Position numbers and translations under genes: made by a program. A model generated the notes under the pieces. The model was not told where the DNA came from, did not search any database, and worked only from the letters and a program-made list of their open reading frames with translations. 64,000 nt of DNA from Candidatus Saccharimonadota bacterium (lineage in GTDB: Bacteria; Patescibacteriota; Saccharimonadia; Saccharimonadales; Saccharimonadaceae): the NCBI GenBank assembly GCA_024402895.1, contig JAKSSX010000001.1, positions 22,090-86,089 of the forward strand, in the 5' to 3' direction. Shown piece after piece: positions 2,227-64,000 of the stretch. Within the stretch, counting starts at the first letter, position 1, and every line of letters begins with the position of its first letter.

Positions 2227-4506
2227 ATGTCAGAGAAGTATCTAGGCCTCCCGGATAAAAGTGGCGGCGACGGACAGGATTGGAACATGGATCCAAATGC
2301 TCCAAAGTCGACAGAATTAGCTATTTATGCAGCTGCTGGTGGCGAAGAAGGTCCAGCAGAGGATACTAGCACCGAAACTAATCCAGCAGAGACTAATGGC
2401 TATGAAGATGCTGACGAAGTATCTGCAGCTGATTTGCTCGTAATGAGTGGTCTTGGCAGAAACGGCGAAGGCGGTAACACTGGTGGCGAAGGCAACGGTG
2501 AAGGTAATAGTGAAGGCGATGTCGAAGGTAATGACGACAATGCTGAAACTGGCGAAAACGGTGAAGACGGTGAGTCTGAACTTGATCGTGCTCTTGGTAA
2601 TAACTATACTTCTGACATTTTTAGAGCAGCTCGTAGCATTGGTAAACCAGTTGAGAATGCTATGGATATCTTTGACTGGAGCGACGAAGACAAGCAGCGC
2701 TTGCTAGATGCTCTCGCAAATCCTGTTGAAACTGCCGATGAAGGTACTAGCGAAGGCGGCAATACTGGCGCAGTAGCTGGTGGCGCTGAAGCTGGAACTG
2801 CTACTGCAACTACAGCTGAGACTGGTAGCACCGGCGCAGCAGCTCCTGAAGCTGAAACTAGCGACTCTGAAGAAGATGATGATGCTAGAATCGCTGCAGC
2901 AATTGCCGCAGCAGGCGTAGCTGGCACGGTAGCAGCTGCCGGTGGAAATATTTCCTCCGAAGAAGCTAATAGAATGGCTGAAGAAGTAGCTGAAACTGCA
3001 GATAACGGTAATGAAAAGAAAAGACGCTCTCCTGCCTTTAAGAAAAAGGTGGCAGCAGTAATTCTAACCCTCGCTGCATTGGCTGGTATGGCTGGTCTAG
3101 GTATGAATAACGATAAAAATACCAAAGAGCAGACTACTACCGCGATTGAGGAAACTACTGACGATCAGGAAGATGGCGAGCAGAATGAGGCTCTTCGCAT
3201 CATGGACAACTATGATTACTACAATAATATCGAAGCGAAACCATCCCTTAACTCTTGGATGAATGGTTCTGAATATGTAAGTGATTTGGCAAATAGCGGC
3301 GATATTGAAATCGTAAGAGATACTGAAGGCCATCTCGAATTTGCGAATAGAGATGATGCATATAGAACGATTTTGACTGGTTTGTTCACAATGAACCAGG
3401 AGCAGGCTGGCTCAATCATGGGCTTTGCTAGAGAAGCTGGCCTCTTTAGTGCATATATGGATGAAGCAACCGTCCAGGCTGGTGAGAATGCTATTGCAAA
3501 TATGACCGAAGAAGAGCAGGCTGCAGCTATCGCTGAATGGCAGGCAGCTCTCGCAAACGCTTCCTTCGATACTGTAATTTGGCAGGGTAATGCAGATAAC
3601 TGTTACATTCGTGATAAGAGTGGCGATGCTCATATTGAGAATAGTAGTGATGCTGAAGCATGTCACTGTGTCACTGATGAGACTGGTACTCCTGTTCTTC
3701 GCGTTACTCTTGAGAACGGTCAGCAAATGTACTTCAAGTTTAACCTTGAATATTCATCTATCGAAGAAACCAAGGATGGCTACATTGTTACCTTCTTTGA
3801 TGAAAACGGTAACGAAATTAAGGTATGCTGCCAGGATCTCGATGTTGAGGGCAACCCAGTAACAAGCACTATTCCAGATACTGACCCAGATCCAACTCCA
3901 ACCCCAACTCCAGAACCAACCCCAACTCCAGACCCAGACCCAGATCCAGATCCAACCCCAACTCCAACTCCAGACCCAGATCCAACTCCAACCCCAGACC
4001 CAGATCCAACTCCAACTCCAAGTGACGAAAAGAAACCATTTACTGAAGAAGAGGTGACGAGAGGTCTTGACGGCCTTACGGTTACCGATGAGGATTCAGA
4101 GGTTGATGAGGGTGAGGTTACTGAAGCGCCTACGGAAGTTGTCGAAGGTACAGGTGGATCAACCGTAACTCCAGAAGCTACAACGCCTACCGTAGCTCCT
4201 GGCGATAACGAGCAGACCGTCGGAATGGATCCGAATTCGATGTTAAGTGGCGACGGAAGTGGTAATACTGCTGCGGAAGCTAGGGATAATGGCGATGTGA
4301 ATGGTGCTGCAAGTGGTAAAAATACGCAAGATGATTTAGGCTATACCTCCGCGGAAGACGCGGCGACCGGAGCATCTGATGCTGCCGGTGGAGCCGATGA
4401 AGTGGCGGCAAGAGAACGTGATGCTGGACTGGCAGATGAAGCTGCAAGCGTAGCAGGTATGAATGATGCTACGGCAGGAAATGGGTTCATGAATGGTGAA
4501 CTCTAA
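2227..4506 (+). CDS. large acidic low-complexity membrane/surface protein with PT/PD linker
   Basis: 759 aa. Has a G/E/N/A-rich acidic N-terminus, one hydrophobic span (AAVILTLAALAGMAGLGM), a globular middle region, a (DP/TP)n linker and an acidic tail. No family recognised. Confidence 0.7.
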   Translation: MSEKYLGLPDKSGGDGQDWNMDPNAPKSTELAIYAAAGGEEGPAEDTSTETNPAETNGYEDADEVSAADLLVMSGLGRNGEGGNTGGEGNGEGNSEGDVEGNDDNAETGENGEDGESELDRALGNNYTSDIFRAARSIGKPVENAMDIFDWSDEDKQRLLDALANPVETADEGTSEGGNTGAVAGGAEAGTATATTAETGSTGAAAPEAETSDSEEDDDARIAAAIAAAGVAGTVAAAGGNISSEEANRMAEEVAETADNGNEKKRRSPAFKKKVAAVILTLAALAGMAGLGMNNDKNTKEQTTTAIEETTDDQEDGEQNEALRIMDNYDYYNNIEAKPSLNSWMNGSEYVSDLANSGDIEIVRDTEGHLEFANRDDAYRTILTGLFTMNQEQAGSIMGFAREAGLFSAYMDEATVQAGENAIANMTEEEQAAAIAEWQAALANASFDTVIWQGNADNCYIRDKSGDAHIENSSDAEACHCVTDETGTPVLRVTLENGQQMYFKFNLEYSSIEETKDGYIVTFFDENGNEIKVCCQDLDVEGNPVTSTIPDTDPDPTPTPTPEPTPTPDPDPDPDPTPTPTPDPDPTPTPDPDPTPTPSDEKKPFTEEEVTRGLDGLTVTDEDSEVDEGEVTEAPTEVVEGTGGSTVTPEATTPTVAPGDNEQTVGMDPNSMLSGDGSGNTAAEARDNGDVNGAASGKNTQDDLGYTSAEDAATGASDAAGGADEVAARERDAGLADEAASVAGMNDATAGNGFMNGEL
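3877..4020 (+). repeat. hexanucleotide CCA-GAY / CCA-ACY tandem repeat encoding a (PD/PT)n linker
   Basis: About 24 consecutive 6-nt units, translated DTDPDPTPTPTPEPTPTPDPDPDPDPTPTPTPDPDPTPTPDPDPTPTP. Confidence 0.9.
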
Positions 4507-41563: not shown

Positions 41564-43627
41564 ATGTCTAACGCTGAAAAAGGTGGTAATGGTGAGAGTG
41601 GTGGCAATAATCAGGCGACGGGATGGGATTCTTTAAGGAGTCCATATTATACTGAGGAAACTCCTGATACTAGTGTTTTTGATGATCCTGTTGCTGACGG
41701 CATAGAATTTACTTCTTCTAACGCTCAGACGACTCCGGATGTTCCGGATTTTAGCGTGTTTGACGCTCCTTCAACAGATGCGTCAACATTTTCAGGTAGT
41801 GATGATATGAGCTGGTATGATGGCTCATTTATTGAACTCGATTCGCAGTGGAAAGCTGAAGTAGCTGAAGAAAAAAGAAAAGACGAAGAGAGGGCTATGG
41901 CAGAGCGGCTCGATGAGCTTGAGGCGGTTAGAAAGAAAAACGCTTTTGATTTTGAGTTGCTCGCAGATGCTGCTGGTGGTAACCTTAAGTATTTATATGA
42001 TAGCTGTACAGATGAACAGAGACAGAGGCTTCAGGCCAGTGTTGATTTGGTTTTTGCGCCAGTTTCGGTAGCTATGAATGATACGAATTCGACGAAGAGA
42101 ATCGAAAGCCTTCATTGCTTTCAGGAAGCGGTTAGTACGTATCTTAAAGAAAAAGCGCATGGGGCTATTTCTGATGAGGTGGAGAATAAAATTACTAAGT
42201 TTATGCAGGGTGCTATGGATACACTTAGTGAAAAATATCCAGATGACGGCGAAATACGTATAGGAAATAATGAGACTCAGGAAAGTGATAGTAATCTAGG
42301 AAAAGATGTGCGTGTAAAAGCGGATACTCTCAGCAATGCAATTCTTGCTGCTGTGGTTGACGGAAATGCGGAGGCGATTGGTGCGGTTACTGATACGGTT
42401 GAATTATTGAAATCATCTTTAGGCGACAGCATCGAAAGAGGGGATGAAACAAAATCTTCGATATGGATGAACTATTGTAGCGTGCATGGTGCCGATAAGG
42501 GGCGCGCTAACGCGTTCTTAGAGAATGTTGTTGCGGCTATTGATGCCGGTGATCCAGAAGTTGACTGTTTGATTAAAAAAAGTAACTCGTATTCATCTAG
42601 ACTAGATACTTTCGGTATAGCGGATTTTACTACGCATATGTTAGTTTCGCAAATTAATCCGACGAATATTCAAGAGTTGTTGTTGGCTCAAAGAGAAATA
42701 CCGACGAGTGATTATGCGGCCTTTGAGCAGAATCGAAAGGATGCCTGCGAGCTTTGTCATGCAATTATTCGACGAAGAGATTTTATTCACGATGAGCTTC
42801 CTGGAGTTCATGAACTTCTAGCCGCAATGCTAAAGTTTTATGACACAAAGGATGACGCCGAGGCGCATCAAAAAGCGAACGAAGAATTGCATAGGATTTA
42901 CGAAAGAAAAACGGAACAAGACGCAGCCTTTTATGATGCAAGTGATAGTATTTTTGATTTAGGCAACTATGAAAAGATTACTGAACGAAAAGGCAGAAGT
43001 ATAGATGAGGGCAGTGGGATATATGAGCCGGCCGTAGAAGCGTTAAGGCGCTTAGTAGAGAATACTGACCCTAAGACGTTGGAAAAACCTGAGACTGGCG
43101 ATCAGGAACTTGATTCGATGATTAATGGAATGCTTCTTAAGACTAACGAAGTAACTGGAGAGGCTTACGTTGATTTTCGTCAAGTGGGCGGTATTACTAA
43201 GCGTATGAATGAGATCCTAAAAGAGCATATGGGCGAGTCTGGAATGCATTCATCAATGTTAAAGAGCATTGCGTTCGTAGAGAGGGTGGCTACTTTCGCG
43301 CTTAGGGGCGTGACTGAAAAAGATAGACACGAACTGCTTTTTGATCCGAACTTCAAGGAAATGTGTCGTTTTGCAGAGCTTACTTCGCAAAGCAGGGAGT
43401 ATAGTGAGTCTGACTTTGAAGGCTTTTGGAGTAAGGTTCAGCGCGTAAAGAATTTTGATGATGTTAACGAGATAAATACTCGCTTCCAGATGCTTGCGCA
43501 TCGTAGATTAAGTCAGTTGCGTGATTTACCGCATAAGACAAAGTTCCTGAGACGCGAGGCTGGCGCGCTTTGGTCTGGTAATTTGAATCATGAGATTATT
43601 GGATTAGTGGACGCGAGAAAATATTAA
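41564..43627 (+). CDS. 687-aa orphan soluble, predominantly helical protein
   Basis: AAGGAG Shine-Dalgarno, no TM or signal peptide. Acidic N-terminus with duplicated SVFD(D/A)P motif. No family recognised. Confidence 0.7.
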   Translation: MSNAEKGGNGESGGNNQATGWDSLRSPYYTEETPDTSVFDDPVADGIEFTSSNAQTTPDVPDFSVFDAPSTDASTFSGSDDMSWYDGSFIELDSQWKAEVAEEKRKDEERAMAERLDELEAVRKKNAFDFELLADAAGGNLKYLYDSCTDEQRQRLQASVDLVFAPVSVAMNDTNSTKRIESLHCFQEAVSTYLKEKAHGAISDEVENKITKFMQGAMDTLSEKYPDDGEIRIGNNETQESDSNLGKDVRVKADTLSNAILAAVVDGNAEAIGAVTDTVELLKSSLGDSIERGDETKSSIWMNYCSVHGADKGRANAFLENVVAAIDAGDPEVDCLIKKSNSYSSRLDTFGIADFTTHMLVSQINPTNIQELLLAQREIPTSDYAAFEQNRKDACELCHAIIRRRDFIHDELPGVHELLAAMLKFYDTKDDAEAHQKANEELHRIYERKTEQDAAFYDASDSIFDLGNYEKITERKGRSIDEGSGIYEPAVEALRRLVENTDPKTLEKPETGDQELDSMINGMLLKTNEVTGEAYVDFRQVGGITKRMNEILKEHMGESGMHSSMLKSIAFVERVATFALRGVTEKDRHELLFDPNFKEMCRFAELTSQSREYSESDFEGFWSKVQRVKNFDDVNEINTRFQMLAHRRLSQLRDLPHKTKFLRREAGALWSGNLNHEIIGLVDARKY

Positions 43628-51018: not shown

Positions 51019-51025
51019 GGAAGAG

Positions 51026-51056
51026 AATCCAGGGTAATTTGCTCCCTGGATTTTTC
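51026..51056 (+). terminator. intrinsic terminator
   Basis: AATCCAGGG ... CCCTGGATT followed by TTT. Confidence 0.8.
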
Positions 51057-51062
51057 TTGTTT

Positions 51063-51240
51063 TAAAATATTTTTGCAAAAATGCAAGTGCAGGGAAGTAA
51101 ATATTGTAAAATATACAACGATTTTGTCAAGACGTCTCACGTTCGGTTATTCTAAAATATTTTTCAGAAAATGCAAGTGTGGAAAAGTCAAAAGCGGAAT
51201 AAAAATTTGTTCGGTTTTTCCTCTGTTATGGAGTAGGTTT
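51063..51240 (+). repeat. two tandem, diverged units of about 90 bp
   Basis: 51063 TAAAATATTTTTGCAAAAATGCAAGTGCAGGGAAGTAAA versus 51153 TAAAATATTTTTCAGAAAATGCAAGTGTGGAAAAGTCAAA. Confidence 0.7.
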
Positions 51241-51277
51241 TTCCACCATGTTGTGAAAAAATCTACAAAAATAGGTA

Positions 51278-51306
51278 TTGAAAAATCCTGGAATGTTGCT
51301 TAAACT
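51278..51306 (+). promoter_or_regulatory. candidate promoter of a 400-nt leader ahead of rsmH
   Basis: TTGAAA, 17-nt spacer, TAAACT. Confidence 0.4.
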
Positions 51307-51714
51307 AAGGACAAGTGGAAACACAAAATAAACACCACGAAACAAAAATACAAAAATAAGTAATCACGATTGACTACTACAAAATGCAAACTACGAATTA
51401 CACTCAGGATCAATCGCAGCAATTCCAAATTGTTACTCTATCGAAGCGTAAGTAACTTATTTTTGCAGCACATTTACAATGTTCGAACCCAGTCATCGAG
51501 GAGTTTTGGGCGCGTTTAGGATACGCGAAACAGAAACTGTATGTACATTCAACACAAATACACACCTCCCAAACAAATAACTCCACCTCACACAAATTAA
51601 GTCTCTCAACTCTGTAACATTATGCTGGCTATACGCCATCAGGCAGTTACAGATATCTTAATGTGTTAAGGAACAAAATAAACAACAAAAAACACAAAAA
51701 CCTGAAATTTCTCG

Positions 51715-58978: not shown

Positions 58979-60412
58979 ATGAGTACACTATTTAAAAGAA
59001 CAAAAATTTTAGCGACTGTAGGTCCTTCTGTTTTTGAGGAAGAGAAGCTAAAAGAGATGGTCTATGCGGGCGTCAATGGCTTCCGTCTAAACTTTTCTCA
59101 CGGCACCTACGATGAGCGCGACGAACAAATTCGTATTATTCGCAAATATGCCGCAGAGCGTGGTAAATCAGTAGCAATCGTTCAGGATTTGCAGGGTCCA
59201 AAGATTCGCCTTGGCGAGTTAAAAGATAATCATCTTGACCTTAAGAAGGGTGACGAAATCGTTCTCGATTACGCAGTAAAAGAGCATGATGGTAGTCTTC
59301 ATATGCCAGTTCAGTACAACCTCGCAAAGCGTGCTAAGGTTGGCGAGCCTATCTTCCTCTTTGATGGTAAGATTCGCACTAGCGTCATCGAAGTAGTTTC
59401 TGAAACTGCTATTAAGTGCCGCGTTGAAAATGATGGCTTCGTTATGAGCCGTAAGGGTGTAAACCTTCCAGAAACTGATCTTGGTGGTGATATTTTCACT
59501 GAGAAGGATTTGGCTGATATTGAGTTCGGTGCAAGCCGCGATTTCGATTACGTTGCAATGAGCTTCGTTCAGACTGCATCTGATATTGAAAAGATGCGCC
59601 AGATTCTTACTTCTCATGGCTCTAAGGCAAAAATCATCGCAAAGATTGAGACTAAGAAAGCTGTTGAAACCGACGAAGGTCTCGAGGCTATCGTCAAAGC
59701 AACTGATGGTATTATGATCGCTCGTGGCGATATGGCTATCGAAGCAGGTGCTGAGGTTGTTCCTATTGTTCAGCGCAAGCTTATCGCTTTCTGCCGCCAG
59801 TATTCAAAGATTTGTATCGTTGCTACCCAGATGATGGCAAGCATGGTCGACAACCCAGAACCAACTCGTGCAGAGGTTTCTGACGTTGCAACCGGCGTTA
59901 TCCTTGGTGCAGACGCAGTTATGCTTTCCGATGAGACTGCAAACGGTAAGTATCCTATCGAAACCATTCTTGAGATGAAGAAAGTTATTCTTTACACTCA
60001 GAACCATACCCGTATTCAGGCTCTCGACGCATTGCCAACTGGTACCTACCAGAACTACGATCATATCGCACGCGCTGTTGCTGATATCGCAGAAGGCGTT
60101 AAGGCTGATGTAATCGCAGTTGCAACTAAGTCTGGTGCTACTGCACTCGCAATCGCTGCACAGCGTCCAAACGTTCCTATTATTTCTATCACAAGCGATC
60201 ATCGCGTTGCAGGTCAGCTAGCTCTTACCTACGCAAACTCTTCATTTGTTCGCGAATATGATGAGAACTATGCATTCGATGCAGTTCAGGATCTTAAGAA
60301 TGAAGGTTATCTAAAGCTCTCTGAGGGTCAGGATAGCTTGAAGGTTGTTCTTGTTTCCGGTCTTCGTGACGAACAGGGCGGCACAAACAGTATTCAAATT
60401 CGCAAAGTTTAG
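58979..60412 (+). CDS. pyk: pyruvate kinase
   Basis: TKILATVGPS, NFSHG, MIARGDM and ATQMMASM motifs. Confidence 0.95.
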   Translation: MSTLFKRTKILATVGPSVFEEEKLKEMVYAGVNGFRLNFSHGTYDERDEQIRIIRKYAAERGKSVAIVQDLQGPKIRLGELKDNHLDLKKGDEIVLDYAVKEHDGSLHMPVQYNLAKRAKVGEPIFLFDGKIRTSVIEVVSETAIKCRVENDGFVMSRKGVNLPETDLGGDIFTEKDLADIEFGASRDFDYVAMSFVQTASDIEKMRQILTSHGSKAKIIAKIETKKAVETDEGLEAIVKATDGIMIARGDMAIEAGAEVVPIVQRKLIAFCRQYSKICIVATQMMASMVDNPEPTRAEVSDVATGVILGADAVMLSDETANGKYPIETILEMKKVILYTQNHTRIQALDALPTGTYQNYDHIARAVADIAEGVKADVIAVATKSGATALAIAAQRPNVPIISITSDHRVAGQLALTYANSSFVREYDENYAFDAVQDLKNEGYLKLSEGQDSLKVVLVSGLRDEQGGTNSIQIRKV

Positions 60413-60439
60413 TAGTGGGTTTATAAAAGGAGGGCTCAA

Positions 60440-61519
60440 ATGTCGAATTTTAGAAAGAAAACAATTCAGGATGTCGAAATCGCCGGCAAGACTGTATTAG
60501 TTCGTGTAGATTACAATGTTCCAATCAAGGATGGCGTCATTCAGGAAGACATGCGCATTTGCGGCAGTCTATCTACGATTCGCTATCTCCTAGATCAGGG
60601 CGCACGCAAAGTAATTCTAATGTCGCATTTGGGCCGTCCAGACGGCGCTTACGTGCCAGAGATGTCTCTGGCACCATGCGCACAGCGCCTTGGCGAGCTT
60701 TTGCCAGATAAAGTCGTGCGTTTTTCTGATATGATTTATGGCCAGGATGCAAAAGATGCAGTTGCTGCATTGCCAGAAGGCGGTATTTTGCTCTTGGAGA
60801 ACTTGCGCTATGTTCCTGATGAGGAAGAAAACTCTGCTGAGTTTGCGCAAGAGATTGTTGATGCTACTGGCGCAGAGCTATTTGTTCAGGATGGCTTCGC
60901 TGTAATCCATCGTGCGCATGCATCGACTGATGCAATTGCGCGTATTTTGCCTGCAGTTGCCGGTTTCTTGGTCGAGAATGAAGTTTCTCGCCTAGAAGGT
61001 GCTATGGAAAATCCTGAACGCCCACTCTTAGTTATTGTTGGTGGTGCTAAAGTTGCCGATAAGCAGCCATTGATTGATAAGTTCTTGCCGATCGCAGACA
61101 AGATTGCTGTTGGCGGTAAAATTGCAGCTGACGGTTACACTAGCGACGATCCAAAGATTTATGTTGCCGAAGATTTTGCTGAAGATGAAAATGGCGCAAA
61201 ATTGGATATTGGCCCAGCAAGTACAGCAAAGATTGTTGATTTGATTAATGAATCTAAGACTATCGTTTGGAACGGTACTCTTGGCATGGTTGAAAATGAA
61301 GTATTTGCTCGTGGCTCTTATGCTATTGCTAAAGCGATGGGCGAAAAACATGACAGCATGACGATTATTGGTGGTGGTGATACTGCTGGTTATGTTGAAA
61401 GTGTTATTAAGAATAGCGGCGAGTTATCGTATAGCTTAATTTCTACTGGCGGTGGCGCAAGCCTAGAGTTGCTATCCGGTAAGAAATTGCCAGGTCTAGA
61501 AGTATTACAGGATAAGTAA
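60440..61519 (+). CDS. pgk: phosphoglycerate kinase (short, 359 aa)
   Basis: RVDYNVP, MSHLGRP and STGGGASLELL motifs. AAGGAGGG Shine-Dalgarno. Confidence 0.95.
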   Translation: MSNFRKKTIQDVEIAGKTVLVRVDYNVPIKDGVIQEDMRICGSLSTIRYLLDQGARKVILMSHLGRPDGAYVPEMSLAPCAQRLGELLPDKVVRFSDMIYGQDAKDAVAALPEGGILLLENLRYVPDEEENSAEFAQEIVDATGAELFVQDGFAVIHRAHASTDAIARILPAVAGFLVENEVSRLEGAMENPERPLLVIVGGAKVADKQPLIDKFLPIADKIAVGGKIAADGYTSDDPKIYVAEDFAEDENGAKLDIGPASTAKIVDLINESKTIVWNGTLGMVENEVFARGSYAIAKAMGEKHDSMTIIGGGDTAGYVESVIKNSGELSYSLISTGGGASLELLSGKKLPGLEVLQDK

Positions 61520-61521
61520 AA

Positions 61522-62166
61522 ATGAATCAGTGGGGTGGTAATCAGAACTATAGGCCAAGTAAAAAGTCTTCGAGTGTGAAGAAGGCTAAACGTTCTGATG
61601 CCGCCACGCAGGTTGTCCCTAATAAAACCGAGCGCGATTATCGCGTTGGAAAAACTATCGCTAATGCGACTAATAACGCGCGAAAACGTAATCTAGAGCA
61701 TATTGCTGCTCGTAAAAAGCAACAGCGCAAGAATGTAATTGTTGTCTTTTGCGTGCTCGTAATTATTGTTGCTGTGGGTATCGTATTATCTAACTATGTA
61801 GCCAAGAAGACTGCCGAGCATCAGGCATCGTTAGCTGAGAAAAATCCGATCACTCCTACCGTCTCTATTGTTGATGAAAATGTTGGCAACAATGTTTCCG
61901 AGCGCGTAAAAGTCTTCGTAGCTCGTATTGAGGCAGATGCGAAGGAATATAATGTCGAGATTGATCACGTTGTCTTGCCTTTTCAGAAGGCTAGGGAAAT
62001 AATCGTTTATTTTAAAGATCGTAAAGAATATTACAAGATGACGATGGAGCGGGGCAGTGCTGTCCAGGTTGAGGATGCTGAGCGTATGATGCGCTATTTG
62101 GACGGGAAGTCATTGAAGCCTGAATATGTTGATTTGCGCGTGGAGGGCAAGGCTTACTATAAATAA
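61522..62166 (+). CDS. membrane-anchored protein, basic N-terminus
   Basis: One TM (VIVVFCVLVIIVAVGIVL) and a roughly 125-aa ectodomain. The terminal EYVDLRVEGKAYY weakly recalls the FtsQ/DivIB C-terminus; this is speculative. Confidence 0.6.
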   Translation: MNQWGGNQNYRPSKKSSSVKKAKRSDAATQVVPNKTERDYRVGKTIANATNNARKRNLEHIAARKKQQRKNVIVVFCVLVIIVAVGIVLSNYVAKKTAEHQASLAEKNPITPTVSIVDENVGNNVSERVKVFVARIEADAKEYNVEIDHVVLPFQKAREIIVYFKDRKEYYKMTMERGSAVQVEDAERMMRYLDGKSLKPEYVDLRVEGKAYYK

Positions 62167-62202
62167 GCTCTATGCGGCTTCACTTCTGGAGTAGTCCCCT
62201 AA

Positions 62203-62220
62203 TGTTCGGTTTTTGTTCGG
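62203..62220 (+). repeat. copy 1 of direct repeat TGTTCGGTTTTTGTTC
   Basis: The identical 16-mer recurs at 63026-63041. A 12-mer core TGTTCGGTTTTT also occurs at 51208-51219. Confidence 0.85.
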
Positions 62221-62937
62221 TCGAAAAAATATAGTGACGTCGACGGGCTAGGGCGGGAGAATCTATATTTTGAAATGAAATTGTAAAAAAGTCAAATGGG
62301 CAGGGGAGTCATAGAAAAATCCGGACATGCGTGAAATCTGTGGAAAAATATACATTTCACGCGGACCGAGATTTGGCTAGACTGTGGAAAACTATGTTAT
62401 AATATGTGATTTTACAGGGGTCGTTTGATGTATCTGCGTAAATGAAAGTCAAATTTTGGCTCCATTCGAGCACTTCTGGATACTCCCCCGAGCTGAAATT
62501 TCCGGGGGAGCGGCCCTTTTTGACTATATTGATCGTCATGCGTATACAAGGGTGGCTACGTATGCGAAAAGAAAAATATATCTGTTAGAAGGTCTTTGCT
62601 GAGATATATGTGTATATATCCGACGATTGTTTATATGCCTGTGTGTATGATATGTAATAGTCGTAAAATATACATTGTGCGACATTGGATATTAAGGCAA
62701 AAGTTGATTATACACCCGTCTCGTTTATGCTTAGTTTTTAGACTCCAGCCGGCTTTCGGCTGTATTTGCCCTCTATTTTGCGCTCTAACGTGCTTCTGCT
62801 TACTTTTTCGGTTATCTACACGTCTAGCCATATTTTGAGTGTCCTGTGCGTTCCTGTGACTTCGGCTATAAATGGCTTCCCCGGATATTTTCGGATTCTA
62901 ACAGGGGTAGCTGCGGGATTATCGGTATATGCGATCA

Positions 62938-62963
62938 GGGGTGGGGAGGGGTAGTAACAGGGG
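62938..62963 (+). other. G-quadruplex-forming motif GGGGtGGGGaGGGGtagtaacaGGGG
   Basis: Four G4 tracts with loops of 1, 1 and 8 nt, in an otherwise AT-rich spacer. Confidence 0.6.
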
Positions 62964-63025
62964 TAAAATAGGGTATTAACAGATAGAATCGGGAAATGAG
63001 GGCTAAGATTTCCCTTTGACTTCCC

Positions 63026-63044
63026 TGTTCGGTTTTTGTTCTGG
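63026..63044 (+). repeat. copy 2 of direct repeat TGTTCGGTTTTTGTTC
   Basis: See 62203. Followed by AAAATATTTTTGCGACAAAAATG, which is related to 51065-51083. Confidence 0.85.
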
Positions 63045-63133
63045 CGATTTGAAAATATTTTTGCGACAAAAATGTTCACCATCGTAGAGTCTATGTAAGT
63101 AAGATTGATAAGTGATATAATAGGTATTAGCTT

Positions 63134-64000
63134 TATGAAGAAAAAGTGGTTAAACATCTTAATTATCCTAGCAATCACTGTAGTCTTTTTGTGGTGGTCA
63201 TTAAAGGATAACTTTAATGAGGTAGTTAATACCCTCTTTGCCTCCAATATTGGCTGGATTATTGTTTCCCTGTTGGCTTTCTGTGTTTATATGCTGTTCG
63301 ACACTTTGTCTACTTATGGCATTATTAAGATTTATAAAAAAGATATCAGCTTTAGATTTGCGATTTATCTCGGCCTAATTAATAAGTTCTTCTGCGGTAT
63401 TACGCCATTGTCTAGTGGCGGTCAGCCAATGCAGATTTATGAGCTCAGAAAGAAGGGCGTTCCTGTTTCTACCGGTGCAAATATTGAAGTTCAGGCCTAT
63501 ATGATGTTCCAGATTGCGCTCATGATCACGGCGATAATTAGCGTAATCTTCGATCAGATTTTCCATTTCTTCCAGTTTATTCCAGTCTTGCAGAGCATGA
63601 TGGTAGCTGGTTTTGTTATTAACTTGGTAATCTTGCTAGTCTTACTATTTGTTAGCTTTTCAAAGAACTTTAACCGTGTTGTCGCGCGTGGTATTATCAA
63701 TGCGCTTGCAAAGGTAGGTTTGGTTCGCAATAAGAAGGCTCGTATCGAGAAATGGGAGGCTGCTTGCCAGAATTATTACGAGAATGGACGCGAGCTTCTT
63801 CGCAATAAGAGAGTATTTGCTAAAGGTGTCTGCTATCAGTGTTTAGCGCTCATTACTTATTACCTATTGCCTATCTTTATTGCATTTGCAATTGGCTGTG
63901 CAGATAATCTCGATGTAATTAACGTATTTACTGCTAGCTCATTTGTATATGTTATGGGCTGCTATGTGCCTATTCCTGGCGCTTCTGGCGGCATGGAAGC
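63134..64000 (+). CDS. flippase-like / lysylphosphatidylglycerol-synthase-TM (UPF0104) family membrane protein, 3' end outside window
   Basis: Open frame from ATG 63134 to the window end and absent from the ORF track because it has no stop. GITPLSSGGQPMQIYEL and PIPGASGGME motifs. Confidence 0.8.

What the first reader, a model, noticed from the sequence alone, without database searches (positions are those of the whole stretch)
62167..63133. 0.97-kb gene-free region packed with short repeats, DnaA-box-like 9-mers and hairpins
No ORF here has an SD or a plausible product. Features read directly from the sequence:
- The identical 16-mer TGTTCGGTTTTTGTTC at both edges (62203 and 63026), 823 bp apart in direct orientation.
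- AGTCAAA four times (62290 +, 62447 +, 62519-62525 -, 63015-63021 -), plus once at 51186.
- TGTGGAAAA twice (62339-62347, 62383-62391). This is one mismatch from the reverse complement of the DnaA box TTATCCACA.
- TTATCTACA (62812-62820, one mismatch) and TTATACACC (62708-62716).
- A 9-bp perfect hairpin GCGTGAAAT...ATTTCACGC (62329-62362).
- An alternating-AT stretch ATATATGTGTATATAT (about 62605-62622).
- TAACAGGGGTA twice (62900, 62956).
Three 9-mers within one mismatch of a DnaA box in under 1 kb exceeds my rough random expectation of about 0.2-0.4. Interpretations are an iteron/DnaA-box platform (a plasmid- or phage-derived or secondary origin, or a datA/DARS-like site), the scar of an excised or decayed mobile element bounded by direct repeats, or a cluster of ncRNAs.
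Basis: partly seen in the sequence, partly recalled or inferred. Interest (0 to 1): 0.65.

Follow-up and report, generated by a model that had tools for sequence, protein, structure and literature searches.

The report
Conserved non-coding RNA locus of Saccharibacteria
The 0.97-kb gene-free stretch is not a replication origin or a mobile-element scar but a single-copy non-coding module kept at the same place in gut, rumen and environmental Saccharibacteria, most likely encoding one long or several small regulatory RNAs that no database yet lists.

Summary
None is a chance feature. The window is a Saccharibacteria (TM7) genome. The whole intergenic region aligns at about 70-75% identity with related species, as well as the flanking glycolysis genes do.

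An exact 27-mer from its centre occurs once each in 54 metagenome contigs. It nearly always lies directly after the same Saccharibacteria-specific membrane-protein gene (pyk-pgk-p214-element).

No reading frame is conserved. There is no Rfam, plasmid or phage match. GC skew stays positive on both sides, and no dnaA or dnaN gene is nearby.

The module contains:
- a conserved extended -10 promoter, followed by a ~110-nt unit that ends in a GC hairpin and a T-run
- an invariant core hairpin
- a hairpin whose stem covaries
- an array of 11-nt G-rich units that pair with pyrimidine blocks and with the right boundary box
- a conserved DnaA-box-like composite motif, TGTGGA(A/T)AAGTCAAAT

Rumen metatranscriptome contigs cover it.

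Best reading (about 0.55): a plus-strand non-coding RNA locus of unknown function, possibly a decoy built from repeated motifs. Main rival (about 0.25): a DNA-level platform for protein binding.

The parts
62203..62221 (+). Left boundary box TGTTCGGTTTTTGTTCGGT: two TGTTCGG heptamers 11 nt apart, directly after the stop codon region of the p214 gene
   Evidence: It is present at about -445 from the core in nearly all loci, always in + orientation. Conservation is at least 90% in 52 sequences.
62284..62309 (+). Block AAAAAAGTCAAATGGGCAGGGGAGTC. The G-rich half is complementary to the right boundary (63019-63031).
   Evidence: Cognate duplex energy averages -23.1 kcal/mol, against -16.5 for shuffled partners.
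62329..62362 (+). Inverted repeat GCGTGAAAT / ATTTCACGC (H1). Its 16-nt loop carries TGTGGAAAA (62339-62347).
   Evidence: Searches show invariant arms without covariation within the family-level set. In distant lineages the arms are different or swapped (AATACTTCAC...GTGAAGTATT), but they still flank TGTGGA(A/T)AAGTCAAAT.
62383..62391 (+). Second TGTGGAAAA, 4-12 nt upstream of the -10 element
   Evidence: It is present in about half of the close relatives only.
62395..62403 (+). Extended -10 promoter TGTTATAAT (P1); the predicted start is about 62409-62411
   Evidence: The block TATGTTATAATATGTGA-TTTACAGGGGT is conserved in more than 30 species. The same TGnTAnAAT form stands in front of the neighbouring genes.
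62409..62522 (+). Candidate ~110-nt RNA unit T1. It has the 5' motif UUUACAGGGGU (62411-62421), a variable hairpin, GUCAAAU (62448-62454), CACUUCUGG (62471-62479), the GC hairpin 62483-62490/62503-62510 and a U-run at 62517-62521.
   Evidence: A profile finds one hit per locus, on the + strand, at a fixed distance from the core. The hairpin is kept with different stem sequences in different clades.
62575..62592 (+). Block AATATATCTGTTAGAAGG, complementary to AACAGATA units
   Evidence: for conservation. The complementarity was read from the sequences.
62619..62642 (+). Hairpin with a covarying stem and the conserved loop ATTGTnTATAT
   Evidence: helix 12. Five of 8 pairs show changes on both sides (for example CG:10/UA:7 and AU:15/CG:5). 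G.U pairs dominate one position on the + strand.
62660..62740 (+). Core. It consists of the invariant 27-mer GTCGTAAAATATACATTGTGCGACATT (hairpin GUCGUA/UGCGAC with a U.G pair) and a ~55-nt conserved extension that can form a longer hairpin around the loop UUAUACACC.
   Evidence: and (helices 13-15).
62762..62803 (+). Pyrimidine-rich conserved blocks GTATTTGCCCTCTATTTTGCGC...GCTTCTGCTTA, including the small hairpin GCGC-N6-GYGC
   Evidence: mean z -1.4. Searches show pairing with the G-rich units, where 5 of 10 pairs have compensatory changes.
62899..62990 (+). Array of 11-nt G-rich units (consensus AACAGGGGTAG / AATAGGGG / AACAGATAG)
   Evidence: Unit spacings peak at 11, 22 and 33 nt (56, 29 and 10 cases). 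Copy number varies between species.
63013..63042 (+). Right boundary CCTTTGACTTCCCTGTTCGGTTTTTGTTCT. CUUCCCUGUUC pairs with a G-rich unit and is followed by GGUUUUUG, which looks like a terminator. It contains the second TGTTCGG box.
63113..63121 (+). Extended -10 promoter TGATATAAT of the downstream LPG_synthase_TM gene (ATG at 63135). It is outside the element.

Best explanation
The region is a single-copy, phylum-wide non-coding RNA locus of Saccharibacteria, read on the + strand.

**Shown**
- The region is non-coding.
- It is conserved as strongly as the neighbouring genes.
- It is fixed directly 3' of one lineage-specific membrane-protein gene.
- It lies away from any replication landmark.
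- It is covered by metatranscriptome contigs.

**Inferred: transcript anatomy**
- A strong extended -10 promoter (62395-62403) starts an RNA whose first bases are the conserved UUUACAGGGGU.
- A GC hairpin plus U-run at about 62483-62521 ends a ~110-nt form (T1).
- Read-through, or a longer precursor that starts upstream, continues through four further parts:
  - a hairpin with a covarying stem (62619-62642)
  - the invariant core hairpin with its conserved extension (62660-62740)
  - pyrimidine-rich blocks (62762-62803)
  - an array of 11-nt G-rich units (62899-62990)
- The G-rich units pair back onto the pyrimidine blocks. They also pair onto CUUCCCUGUUC in the right boundary box, which is followed by a U-run, giving a long terminal hairpin or terminator.

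**Inferred: function**
- The motif ACAGGGG appears at the 5' end of T1, before the H1 hairpin, and many times in the array.
- Because of this repetition, the most likely activity is decoy-type regulation. The RNA would present repeated G-rich sites to an RNA-binding protein or to a C-rich RNA partner, with alternative internal pairings masking or exposing those sites.
- The upstream hairpin carries the conserved DnaA-box-like composite motif TGTGGA(A/T)AAGTCAAAT. The tandem TGTTCGG boxes at both ends are probably control or boundary signals, possibly linking expression to DnaA or to a response-regulator-type protein.
For: **Conservation and copy number**
- The IGR aligns end to end with 8 related MAGs at 66-76% identity, like the flanking CDS.
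- An exact 27-mer occurs once in each of 54 metagenome contigs, including contigs of 396-629 kb, and in no viral contig.
- Synteny with pyk-pgk-p214 holds even in the most distant loci.

**Non-coding status**
- No stop-free frame is conserved.

**Promoter and T1 unit**
- The block TGTTATAAT + TTTACAGGGGT is conserved.
- A T1 profile gives one + strand hit per locus at -250..-130 from the core.
- The hairpin at this position is kept with different stem sequences in different clades, mostly followed by a T-run.

**Structure**
- The 33-pair consensus has 9 pairs with compensatory changes, against 4.2+/-1.3 in shuffles (0 of 500) and 2-5 in slid controls.
- Hairpin 62619-62642 has 5 of 8 compensatory pairs.
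- Many G.U pairs would be A.C mismatches on the other strand.
- The G-rich units are complementary to the right box, which is followed by GGUUUUUG.

**Expression**
- Four bovine-gut metatranscriptomes give contigs over the element of a close relative (L045), at depths like pgk and pyk.
- Conserved-block k-mers reach depth 26-50, and single contigs join the promoter block to the core.
Against: - **Little conserved structure.** RNAalifold on the subregions finds only a few helices.
- **Large model is weak.** For the 123-pair model, the number of pairs with compensatory change is no better than in slid controls.
- **Sequence-invariant stems.** The H1 arms and the CCCCC/GGGGG stem are invariant within clades. 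This pattern is expected for protein recognition rather than for plain RNA helices.
- **Periodicity.** The strict 11-nt period of the G-rich units and of the TGTTCGG boxes fits the DNA helical repeat.
- **Limits of the RNA data.** The evidence comes from unstranded assembled contigs of libraries flagged 'RNA?'. DNA carry-over cannot be excluded. Some contigs include sequence upstream of the proposed start, so the transcript ends are not established.
- **No second promoter.** No convincing sigma-70 promoter was found just upstream of the core.
- **Partner and function are pure inference.**
Confidence: 0.55

Rival explanations
1. A DNA-level nucleoprotein platform. The conserved blocks would be binding sites on double-stranded DNA for several proteins:
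- DnaA at TGTGGA(A/T)AA
- an OmpR/PhoB-type winged-helix dimer at the tandem TGTTCGG-N4-TGTTCGG boxes
- an unknown protein on the 11-bp-phased AACAGGGGTAG array
- a dimer on the core palindrome GTCGYA-N12-TRCGAC

Such a platform would serve chromosome biology, for example DnaA titration or reactivation like datA/DARS, a centromere-like site, or a loop anchor. Transcription would then be incidental or regulatory.
For: - The units have an exact 11-bp period.
- The heptamer pairs have the architecture of Pho, WalR or PhoP boxes (the comparison is from general knowledge).
- The DnaA-box motif is enriched about 40-fold, has a fixed orientation, and matches the perfect consensus in some lineages.
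- Inverted-repeat arms show sequence conservation rather than structural conservation.
- The same motif vocabulary recurs in the intergenic region upstream of the dcw cluster.
Against: - There are only 1-2 DnaA-box-like sites per element, and 26 of 58 loci lack the strict motif.
- An 80-nt near-invariant block is long for transcription-factor sites.
- The hairpin at 62619-62642 covaries, and the H1 arms are swapped or changed in distant lineages while the hairpin is kept.
- The G.U asymmetry points to one strand.
- Promoter and terminator features exist, and the region is covered in metatranscriptomes.
Confidence: 0.25
2. Long 3' UTR or cis-regulatory leader. The region would be the processed 3' UTR of the p214 mRNA, or a leader that controls the downstream gene, rather than an autonomous RNA gene.
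For: - The element always directly follows the p214-family gene.
- RNA contigs run from the 3' end of p214 into the left part of the element.
- Some contigs include sequence upstream of P1.
Against: - The downstream gene differs between lineages: an LPG_synthase_TM gene, an Acyl_transf_3 gene, or convergent genes. It also has its own promoter.
- An internal conserved promoter exists.
- In two runs, depth falls to zero at the junction between p214 and the element.
Confidence: 0.08
3. Site-specific recombination or transfer site. The core palindrome (minus strand GTCGCACAA-TGTATA-TTTTACGAC) would be a dif-like Xer site, an att core or an oriT nick region. The flanking repeats would be arm-type or accessory sites.
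For: - Two 9-bp inverted arms flank a 6-bp spacer.
- The left arm and spacer resemble E. coli dif (GCAnAATGTATATT). This was compared by eye from memory, so it is a lead and not a test.
- Direct repeats lie on both sides.
- The type IV secretion systems of Patescibacteria lack a known relaxase (PMC12102498).
Against: - There is no GC-skew switch, so the site is not at the terminus.
- The XerD-arm match is poor.
- No joined or excised form is seen in the source assembly (low sensitivity).
- No recombinase or relaxase gene is adjacent.
- There are no copies in viral contigs, phages or plasmids.
Confidence: 0.05
4. Secondary or plasmid/phage-derived replication origin, or the scar of an excised mobile element bounded by direct repeats.
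For: DnaA-box-like 9-mers, short repeats, an AT-alternating stretch and a 16-bp direct repeat at both edges are all present.
Against: - GC skew is positive and uninterrupted on both sides.
- The skew does not depend on gene strand in this genome.
- No rep, dnaA or dnaN gene is nearby.
- There is no similarity to 72,556 plasmids or 50,697 phages.
- The element is single-copy, syntenic and under purifying selection across the phylum.
- The AT-alternating stretch is not conserved.
Confidence: 0.03

Closest known systems
Protein-sequestering sRNAs with repeated motifs (CsrB/CsrC, RsmY/RsmZ)
   Same: - A non-coding RNA of a few hundred nucleotides carries many copies of one short purine-rich motif. 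CsrA sites resemble ACARGGAUGU, and here the unit is AACAGGGGUA.
- Copy number varies between species.
- The RNA ends in a terminator-like hairpin.
   Different: - The motif is AGGGG rather than GGA, and the units have a strict 11-nt period.
- The units are largely complementary to other parts of the same RNA.
- No CsrA gene was looked for or found.
- The locus is larger and has extra conserved parts (core, DnaA-box hairpin, boundary boxes).
Large conserved bacterial ncRNAs of unknown or recently found function (OLE, ROOL, GOLLD, raiA)
   Same: - Several hundred nucleotides long.
- Lineage-wide conservation with long near-invariant sequence blocks.
- Single copy per genome.
   Different: - Those RNAs show many clearly covarying helices, while here covariation is limited to a few helices.
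- No Rfam model matches.
datA / DARS and the DnaA-box clusters of Bacillus
   Same: - An intergenic, mid-replichore locus with DnaA-box-like sequences conserved in orientation.
   Different: - Those sites need clusters of 3-5 or more boxes in a defined arrangement, plus IHF or Fis sites.
- Here there are one or two boxes, missing in 45% of the loci, and embedded in a hairpin loop.
Pho box / WalR / PhoP operator (OmpR-family response-regulator sites)
   Same: - Two direct 6-7-bp repeats are separated by an A/T-rich spacer, giving an 11-bp period.
- TGTTCGG-TTTT-TGTTCGG compares with CTGTCAT-AAAA-CTGTCAT and TGTWAH-N5-TGTWAH.
   Different: - The boxes lie at the two ends of a non-coding module, and one overlaps a terminator-like U-run.
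- They are not at a fixed distance from a -10 element.
- No regulator has been identified.
Iteron-type plasmid origins and the parC centromere of plasmid R1 (11-bp repeats)
   Same: - Tandem short repeats in helical phase, next to AT-rich DNA and a DnaA-box-like site.
   Different: - No rep or par gene is present and there is no plasmid similarity.
- The locus is chromosomal, conserved across the phylum, transcribed, and shows no skew change.

Membership tests
Chromosomal origin oriC | GC-skew sign change at the site | tested here: not met
   Skew is positive in every 1-kb bin of the window. It is positive on both flanks, up to 7 kb to the right, in nearly all related loci.
Chromosomal origin oriC | Cluster of several DnaA boxes with an AT-rich unwinding element, usually next to dnaA or dnaN | tested here: not met
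   There are one or two TGTGGA[TA]AA sites per element. The AT-alternating stretch is unconserved. No dnaA or dnaN gene was found among the examined proteins of the window.
datA / DARS-type DnaA-regulatory site | Three or more DnaA boxes in a fixed arrangement | tested here: not met
   At most 2 sites occur, and 26 of 58 loci have none by the strict pattern.
datA / DARS-type DnaA-regulatory site | Binding of DnaA and an effect on its nucleotide state | not testable with these tools
   This needs EMSA or ChIP and biochemical assays.
Iteron plasmid or phage origin | Adjacent initiator (rep) gene and homology to plasmids or phages | tested here: not met
   The flanking genes are pgk, p214 and an LPG_synthase_TM gene. 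There is no hit in the plasmid, phage or viral collections.
Mobile-element scar or MITE | Multiple copies or variable presence, with decay among relatives | tested here: not met
   There is one copy per contig, at a conserved position, under purifying selection. No excised form was found in the source run.
dif / Xer site | Location at the replication terminus (skew switch) | tested here: not met
dif / Xer site | 28-bp site with a conserved XerD arm TTATGTnAAnT | tested here: inconclusive
   A comparison by eye with the E. coli dif sequence recalled from memory gave a good match for the left arm and spacer, but only about 4 of 11 for the XerD arm.
Known RNA families (Rfam 15, including tmRNA, RNase P, 6S, SRP, OLE, ROOL, GOLLD, raiA) | Score at or near the family's gathering threshold | tested here: not met
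   The window gave only tRNAs. The region scanned at E<=10 gave one chance hit. Nineteen homologous loci gave no recurrent hit. ARAGORN found no tmRNA.
Independently transcribed bacterial sRNA | Conserved promoter and intrinsic terminator on the same strand at a fixed distance | tested here: met
   The promoter TGTTATAAT at 62395-62403 is followed by the GC hairpin 62483-62510 and a T-run at 62517-62521, all conserved. The simple terminator scan misses the hairpin because its loop is 12 nt.
Independently transcribed bacterial sRNA | Detected transcript with defined ends and strand | tested here: inconclusive
   Unstranded metatranscriptome contigs cover the homologous element. The ends and the strand are not resolved.
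Structured large ncRNA | Statistically supported covarying helices | tested here: inconclusive
   The small consensus exceeds both controls. The 123-pair model exceeds the shuffles on covariation score, but not the slid controls on the number of compensatory pairs.
CsrB/RsmZ-type sponge | Repeated GGA motifs in loops, with a CsrA/RsmA protein in the genome | tested here: not met
   The repeated motif is A(C/U)AGGGG, not GGA. The presence of CsrA was not tested.
OmpR/PhoB-type operator | Two direct heptamer or hexamer repeats with an 11-bp period | tested here: met
   TGTTCGG-N4-TGTTCGG occurs at both ends in nearly all lineages. Protein binding is not testable here.

The most novel reading that the evidence does not exclude
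The module encodes a roughly 630-750-nt ribonucleoprotein-forming RNA that is universal to Saccharibacteria.
- It would be closed by pairing between GGGCAGGGGAGUC (62297-62309) and the right boundary (63019-63031).
- Its repeated G-rich units and invariant core would bind lineage-specific proteins.
- Its synthesis would be tied to the replication initiator through the DnaA-box hairpin.

This would be a new class of large bacterial ncRNA, retained in some of the smallest known cellular genomes.
Probability: 0.25. Interest if true: 0.85.

Novelty: new variant of a known kind. Interest (0 to 1): 0.66.

Why it matters
Saccharibacteria have very small, densely coding genomes. Even so, they keep nearly 1 kb of non-coding sequence at one fixed place, with blocks that stay identical across lineages whose neighbouring protein is only 26-45% identical. 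This implies an important and so far undescribed function.

The function could be a new regulatory or ribonucleoprotein RNA, or a chromosomal control site that involves a DnaA-box-like motif. These organisms are now genetically tractable by natural transformation (PMC10633639). The locus can therefore be deleted, mutated and mapped directly.

There is also a practical point. Intergenic 'neutral sites' between convergent genes are used for cassette insertion in these bacteria. Conserved non-coding modules such as this one should be recognised and avoided.

Tried and rejected
- **Rfam.** I ran it at gathering and permissive thresholds on the window and on 19 homologous loci, and ran ARAGORN for tmRNA. 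Nothing was found.
- **Small ORFs.** Six-frame tblastn against 52 homologues showed that every frame is interrupted by stops in many species.
- **Plasmid, phage and viral similarity.** None was found.
- **Origin, terminus and dif.** These are rejected on GC skew and on the absence of dnaA and dnaN.
- **Excision between the direct repeats.** No joined form appears in the source run, but contigs drop rare variants.
- **Sigma-70 promoter just upstream of the core.** Scores are only slightly above background and are inconsistent between species.
- **Closing stem for T1.** Its position shifts between species, so it is not supported.
- **Helices around the core extension.** Those between 62700 and 62760 are only weakly supported by per-sequence folding.
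- **Transcription stop at the right boundary.** I had read this from zero RNA depth over the downstream genes of L045. I withdrew it, because runs of unknown type also lack that stretch, so it is probably strain-variable.
- **Contig ends inside the core as a start site.** Assembly-graph branching at the shared conserved sequence explains them.
- **Other rumen relatives.** L054 and L061 are not present in the available RNA runs.
- **Literature.** Searches on Saccharibacteria combined with ncRNA, oriC, sRNA or intergenic found no description of this element.
- **Resemblances considered from memory and not pursued.** These are the RNase P CR-I/CR-II motifs, parS half-sites, CtsR heptads (RGTCAAA), MraZ repeats, TRAP triplets and G-quadruplex potential of the GGGG-N7 array.
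Full report
**Context**

The window comes from a Saccharibacteria (TM7) genome of an animal gut.
- Relatives of the protein encoded at 61522-62166 (called p214 here) are found only in Saccharibacteria MAGs.
- The sequence itself is held in gut and horse metagenome runs.
- An independent assembly of the source sample reproduces 60400-64000 without a single difference.
- The region 62167-63134 lies between two genes. Upstream is p214, a membrane-anchored protein without a Pfam family that follows pyk and pgk. Downstream is an LPG_synthase_TM-family gene starting at 63135.

**Check of the observation**

- The 16-mer direct repeat is far beyond chance (expected 0.07).
- Three DnaA-box-like 9-mers lie in 967 bp, against about 0.2 expected from the window-wide rate.
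- The motifs TGTGGAAAA, GTTCGGTT, CACTTCTG and TAAAATATRCA occur in the 64-kb window only here and in one other intergenic region, 51019-51714, upstream of rsmH.
- No reading frame is conserved free of stop codons among 52 homologues.

**Conservation**

This is the decisive result.
- The region aligns end to end with related species at 66-76% identity. This is the same level as the flanking pgk and p214 coding sequence.
- Even a genome of another family (Nanosyncoccaceae), whose p214 is 45% identical, keeps the main blocks.
- The exact 27-mer GTCGTAAAATATRCATTGTGCGACATT was found once in each of 54 metagenome contigs, some of 396-629 kb. It was found in no viral contig.
- Most loci keep the order pyk-pgk-p214-element.
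- In the most distant loci the gene directly to the left is still a p214 relative, while the genes to the right differ and often converge.
- In some close relatives an Acyl_transf_3 gene is inserted just after the right boundary.
- A gene-free stretch of about 600-900 nt around the core is present everywhere.

**Not a replication landmark and not foreign DNA**

- GC skew is positive in every 1-kb bin of the window. This includes bins occupied by minus-strand genes, so the skew reports replication direction rather than coding strand.
- It stays positive on both sides of the element in nearly all related loci, up to 7 kb to the right.
- No dnaA or dnaN gene was seen among the window proteins examined.
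- There is no similarity to plasmid or phage collections.
- These results exclude a chromosomal origin, a terminus or dif site, a plasmid- or phage-derived origin, and a decaying scar.

**Anatomy (window coordinates, + strand)**

1. The boundary box TGTTCGGTTTTTGTTCGGT (62203-62221) consists of two heptamers 11 nt apart. A second copy lies at 63026-63041. Both are found at about -445 and +335 to +379 from the core in nearly all lineages, always in the same orientation. They are almost absent elsewhere in about 340 kb of flanking sequence.
2. The block AAAAAAGTCAAATGGGCAGGGGAGTC lies at 62284-62309.
3. The inverted repeat GCGTGAAAT/ATTTCACGC (62329-62362) has TGTGGAAAA in its loop.
   - Within the family-level set the arms are invariant.
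   - The loop carries either TGTGGAAAA(GTC) or AAAAGTCAAAT.
   - In distant lineages the motif reads TGTGGA(T/A)AAGTCAAAT, sometimes with the perfect DnaA-box consensus TGTGGATAA.
   - There it is flanked by different or swapped arms, for example AATACTTCAC...GTGAAGTATT.
   - So a hairpin that presents this motif is what is kept.
   - The strict motif occurs in 32 of 58 loci, always in + orientation, about 40-fold above the flanking background.
4. A perfect extended -10 element TGTTATAAT (62395-62403) is followed by the conserved TTTACAGGGGT. This is the same promoter form as in front of the neighbouring genes.
5. About 75 nt further on, a GC hairpin (62483-62490/62503-62510) is followed by a T-run (62517-62521).
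   - The hairpin is kept at this position in nearly all lineages, with different stems: CUCCCCCGG/CCGGGGGAG, GCGCUUCUG/CGGAAGUGC and others.
   - A profile of this ~110-nt unit (T1) finds one + strand hit per locus at a fixed distance from the core. It finds nothing else in the window.
6. A hairpin at 62619-62642 has a conserved loop (ATTGTnTATAT) and a stem that covaries in 5 of 8 pairs.
7. The invariant core forms a hairpin GUCGUA/UGCGAC with a U.G pair. It is followed by about 55 near-invariant nucleotides.
8. Pyrimidine-rich blocks lie at 62762-62803.
9. An array of 11-nt G-rich units lies at 62899-62990. The unit consensus is AACAGGGGTAG, copy number varies, and unit spacings peak at 11, 22 and 33 nt.
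10. The right boundary contains CUUCCCUGUUC, which is complementary to a G-rich unit and is followed by GGUUUUUG.

**Evidence for RNA**

*Expression*
- Four bovine-gut metatranscriptome runs contain contigs covering the homologous element of a close relative (L045). Their depths are comparable to those of its pyk, pgk and p214 genes.
- Conserved-block k-mers reach depths of 26-50, and single contigs join the promoter block to the core.
- These are unstranded assembled contigs, and DNA carry-over cannot be excluded.
- Some contigs include sequence upstream of the proposed start. The transcript may therefore be longer than P1 implies, or p214 read-through may contribute.

*Structure*
- RNAalifold finds little in the subregions.
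- On 30 sequences a 33-pair consensus has 9 pairs with compensatory changes. Shuffles give 4.2+/-1.3 (0 of 500) and slid controls give 2-5.
- This consensus includes a 10-bp helix between 62772-62783 and G-rich units at 62939-62950.
- A 123-pair model derived from 15 close relatives closes the molecule by pairing 62297-62309 with 63019-63031.
- On 30 sequences this model is 79% paired, against 43-51% for slid controls. Its covariation score is 0.182, against 0.158 for shuffles. Its count of compensatory pairs is no better than that of the slid controls.
- I therefore call the large fold unproven, and a few helices real.
- Many of the supported pairs are G.U, which would be A.C on the other strand. 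This points to the + strand.

**Interpretation**

- The best-supported reading is a + strand non-coding RNA locus. It would give either one long RNA with an internal, partly efficient terminator, or a short RNA (T1) plus a longer one.
- The motif ACAGGGG recurs at the 5' end of T1, before the hairpin and throughout the array. It is complementary to several pyrimidine blocks of the same molecule.
- This suggests a decoy-type regulator with alternative internal pairings. That mechanism is inference only.
- The DnaA-box-like hairpin and the tandem TGTTCGG boxes look like control or boundary signals.
- The main rival is that the conserved blocks act as protein-binding sites on duplex DNA. The strict 11-bp period and the sequence invariance of the stems favour it. 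The covarying hairpin, the strand-specific G.U pairs and the promoter and terminator features argue against it as the sole explanation.
- Both may hold, since an RNA gene comes with its own regulatory DNA.

**Comparison with known systems, and novelty**

- The locus matches no Rfam family.
- It fails the defining tests for oriC, datA/DARS, iteron origins, dif and mobile-element scars.
- It resembles CsrB-type sponges in having a repeated purine-rich motif, but it lacks GGA motifs.
- It resembles large ncRNAs such as OLE or ROOL in size and sequence conservation, but it has less covariation.
- Literature searches found no description of it.
- I rate it a new variant of a known kind (a lineage-wide bacterial ncRNA locus).
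- There is a 25% chance that it is a large ribonucleoprotein RNA of a new class.

Noticed in passing
window 51019-51714: A second large intergenic region, upstream of rsmH at the head of the dcw cluster, with no mraZ gene. It shares the motif vocabulary of the element: TGTGGAAAAGTCAAAAG, two GTTCGGTT boxes, GTAAAATATACA and CAGGGAAGT. It contains two ~100-bp tandem units and a C/A-rich 400-nt stretch. It is 76% identical over 599 nt in L012, a species whose p214 is only 50% identical. It is probably a related regulatory or RNA locus.
   Followed up: partly
L011, L015, L020, L036, L040, L041, L046, L047, L061, L063: about +380 to +470 from the core: In other clades, a second copy of the CGTGAAA...TTTCACG inverted repeat lies just beyond the right boundary. 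It is followed by a hairpin (A)ATGTCGTAAAAC-N-TACGACGTTAA that resembles the core. Both sit upstream of the promoter of the next gene.
   Followed up: partly
L001 7566-8729 (also L003, L004, L007, L045 and others): A 1.1-kb Acyl_transf_3 acyltransferase gene is inserted between the right boundary and the LPG_synthase_TM gene in some close relatives. The window lacks it. This stretch had zero depth in all sequencing runs laid on L045, so it is probably strain-variable.
   Followed up: partly
window 61522-62166: The p214 protein has a basic N-terminal tail, one transmembrane helix and a ~110-aa outer domain. It has no Pfam family and its relatives are found only in Saccharibacteria. The non-coding element always follows it directly, which suggests a functional link.
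   Followed up: partly
L016, L027, L038, L053, L058 and other distant loci: In distant lineages the genes to the right of the element are on the opposite strand (convergent). GC skew drops towards zero there without changing sign. It is unclear whether this is only a coding-strand effect.
   Followed up: partly
window 63054-63076: The palindrome ATTTTTG-CGA-CAAAAAT lies between the right boundary and the promoter of the downstream gene. It is present in the window but not in the aligned relatives. A related ATTTTTGCAAAAAT occurs at about 51066.
   Followed up: no
window 2227-4506 and 41564-43627: Two large ORFs (759 and 687 aa) have no Pfam family at E<=1e-5.
   Followed up: no
PMC10633639: The 'neutral site' used for cassette insertion in Southlakia epibionticum is an intergenic region between two convergent ORFs. 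In distant lineages the element described here also lies between convergent genes. Whether the two coincide could not be checked.
   Followed up: no
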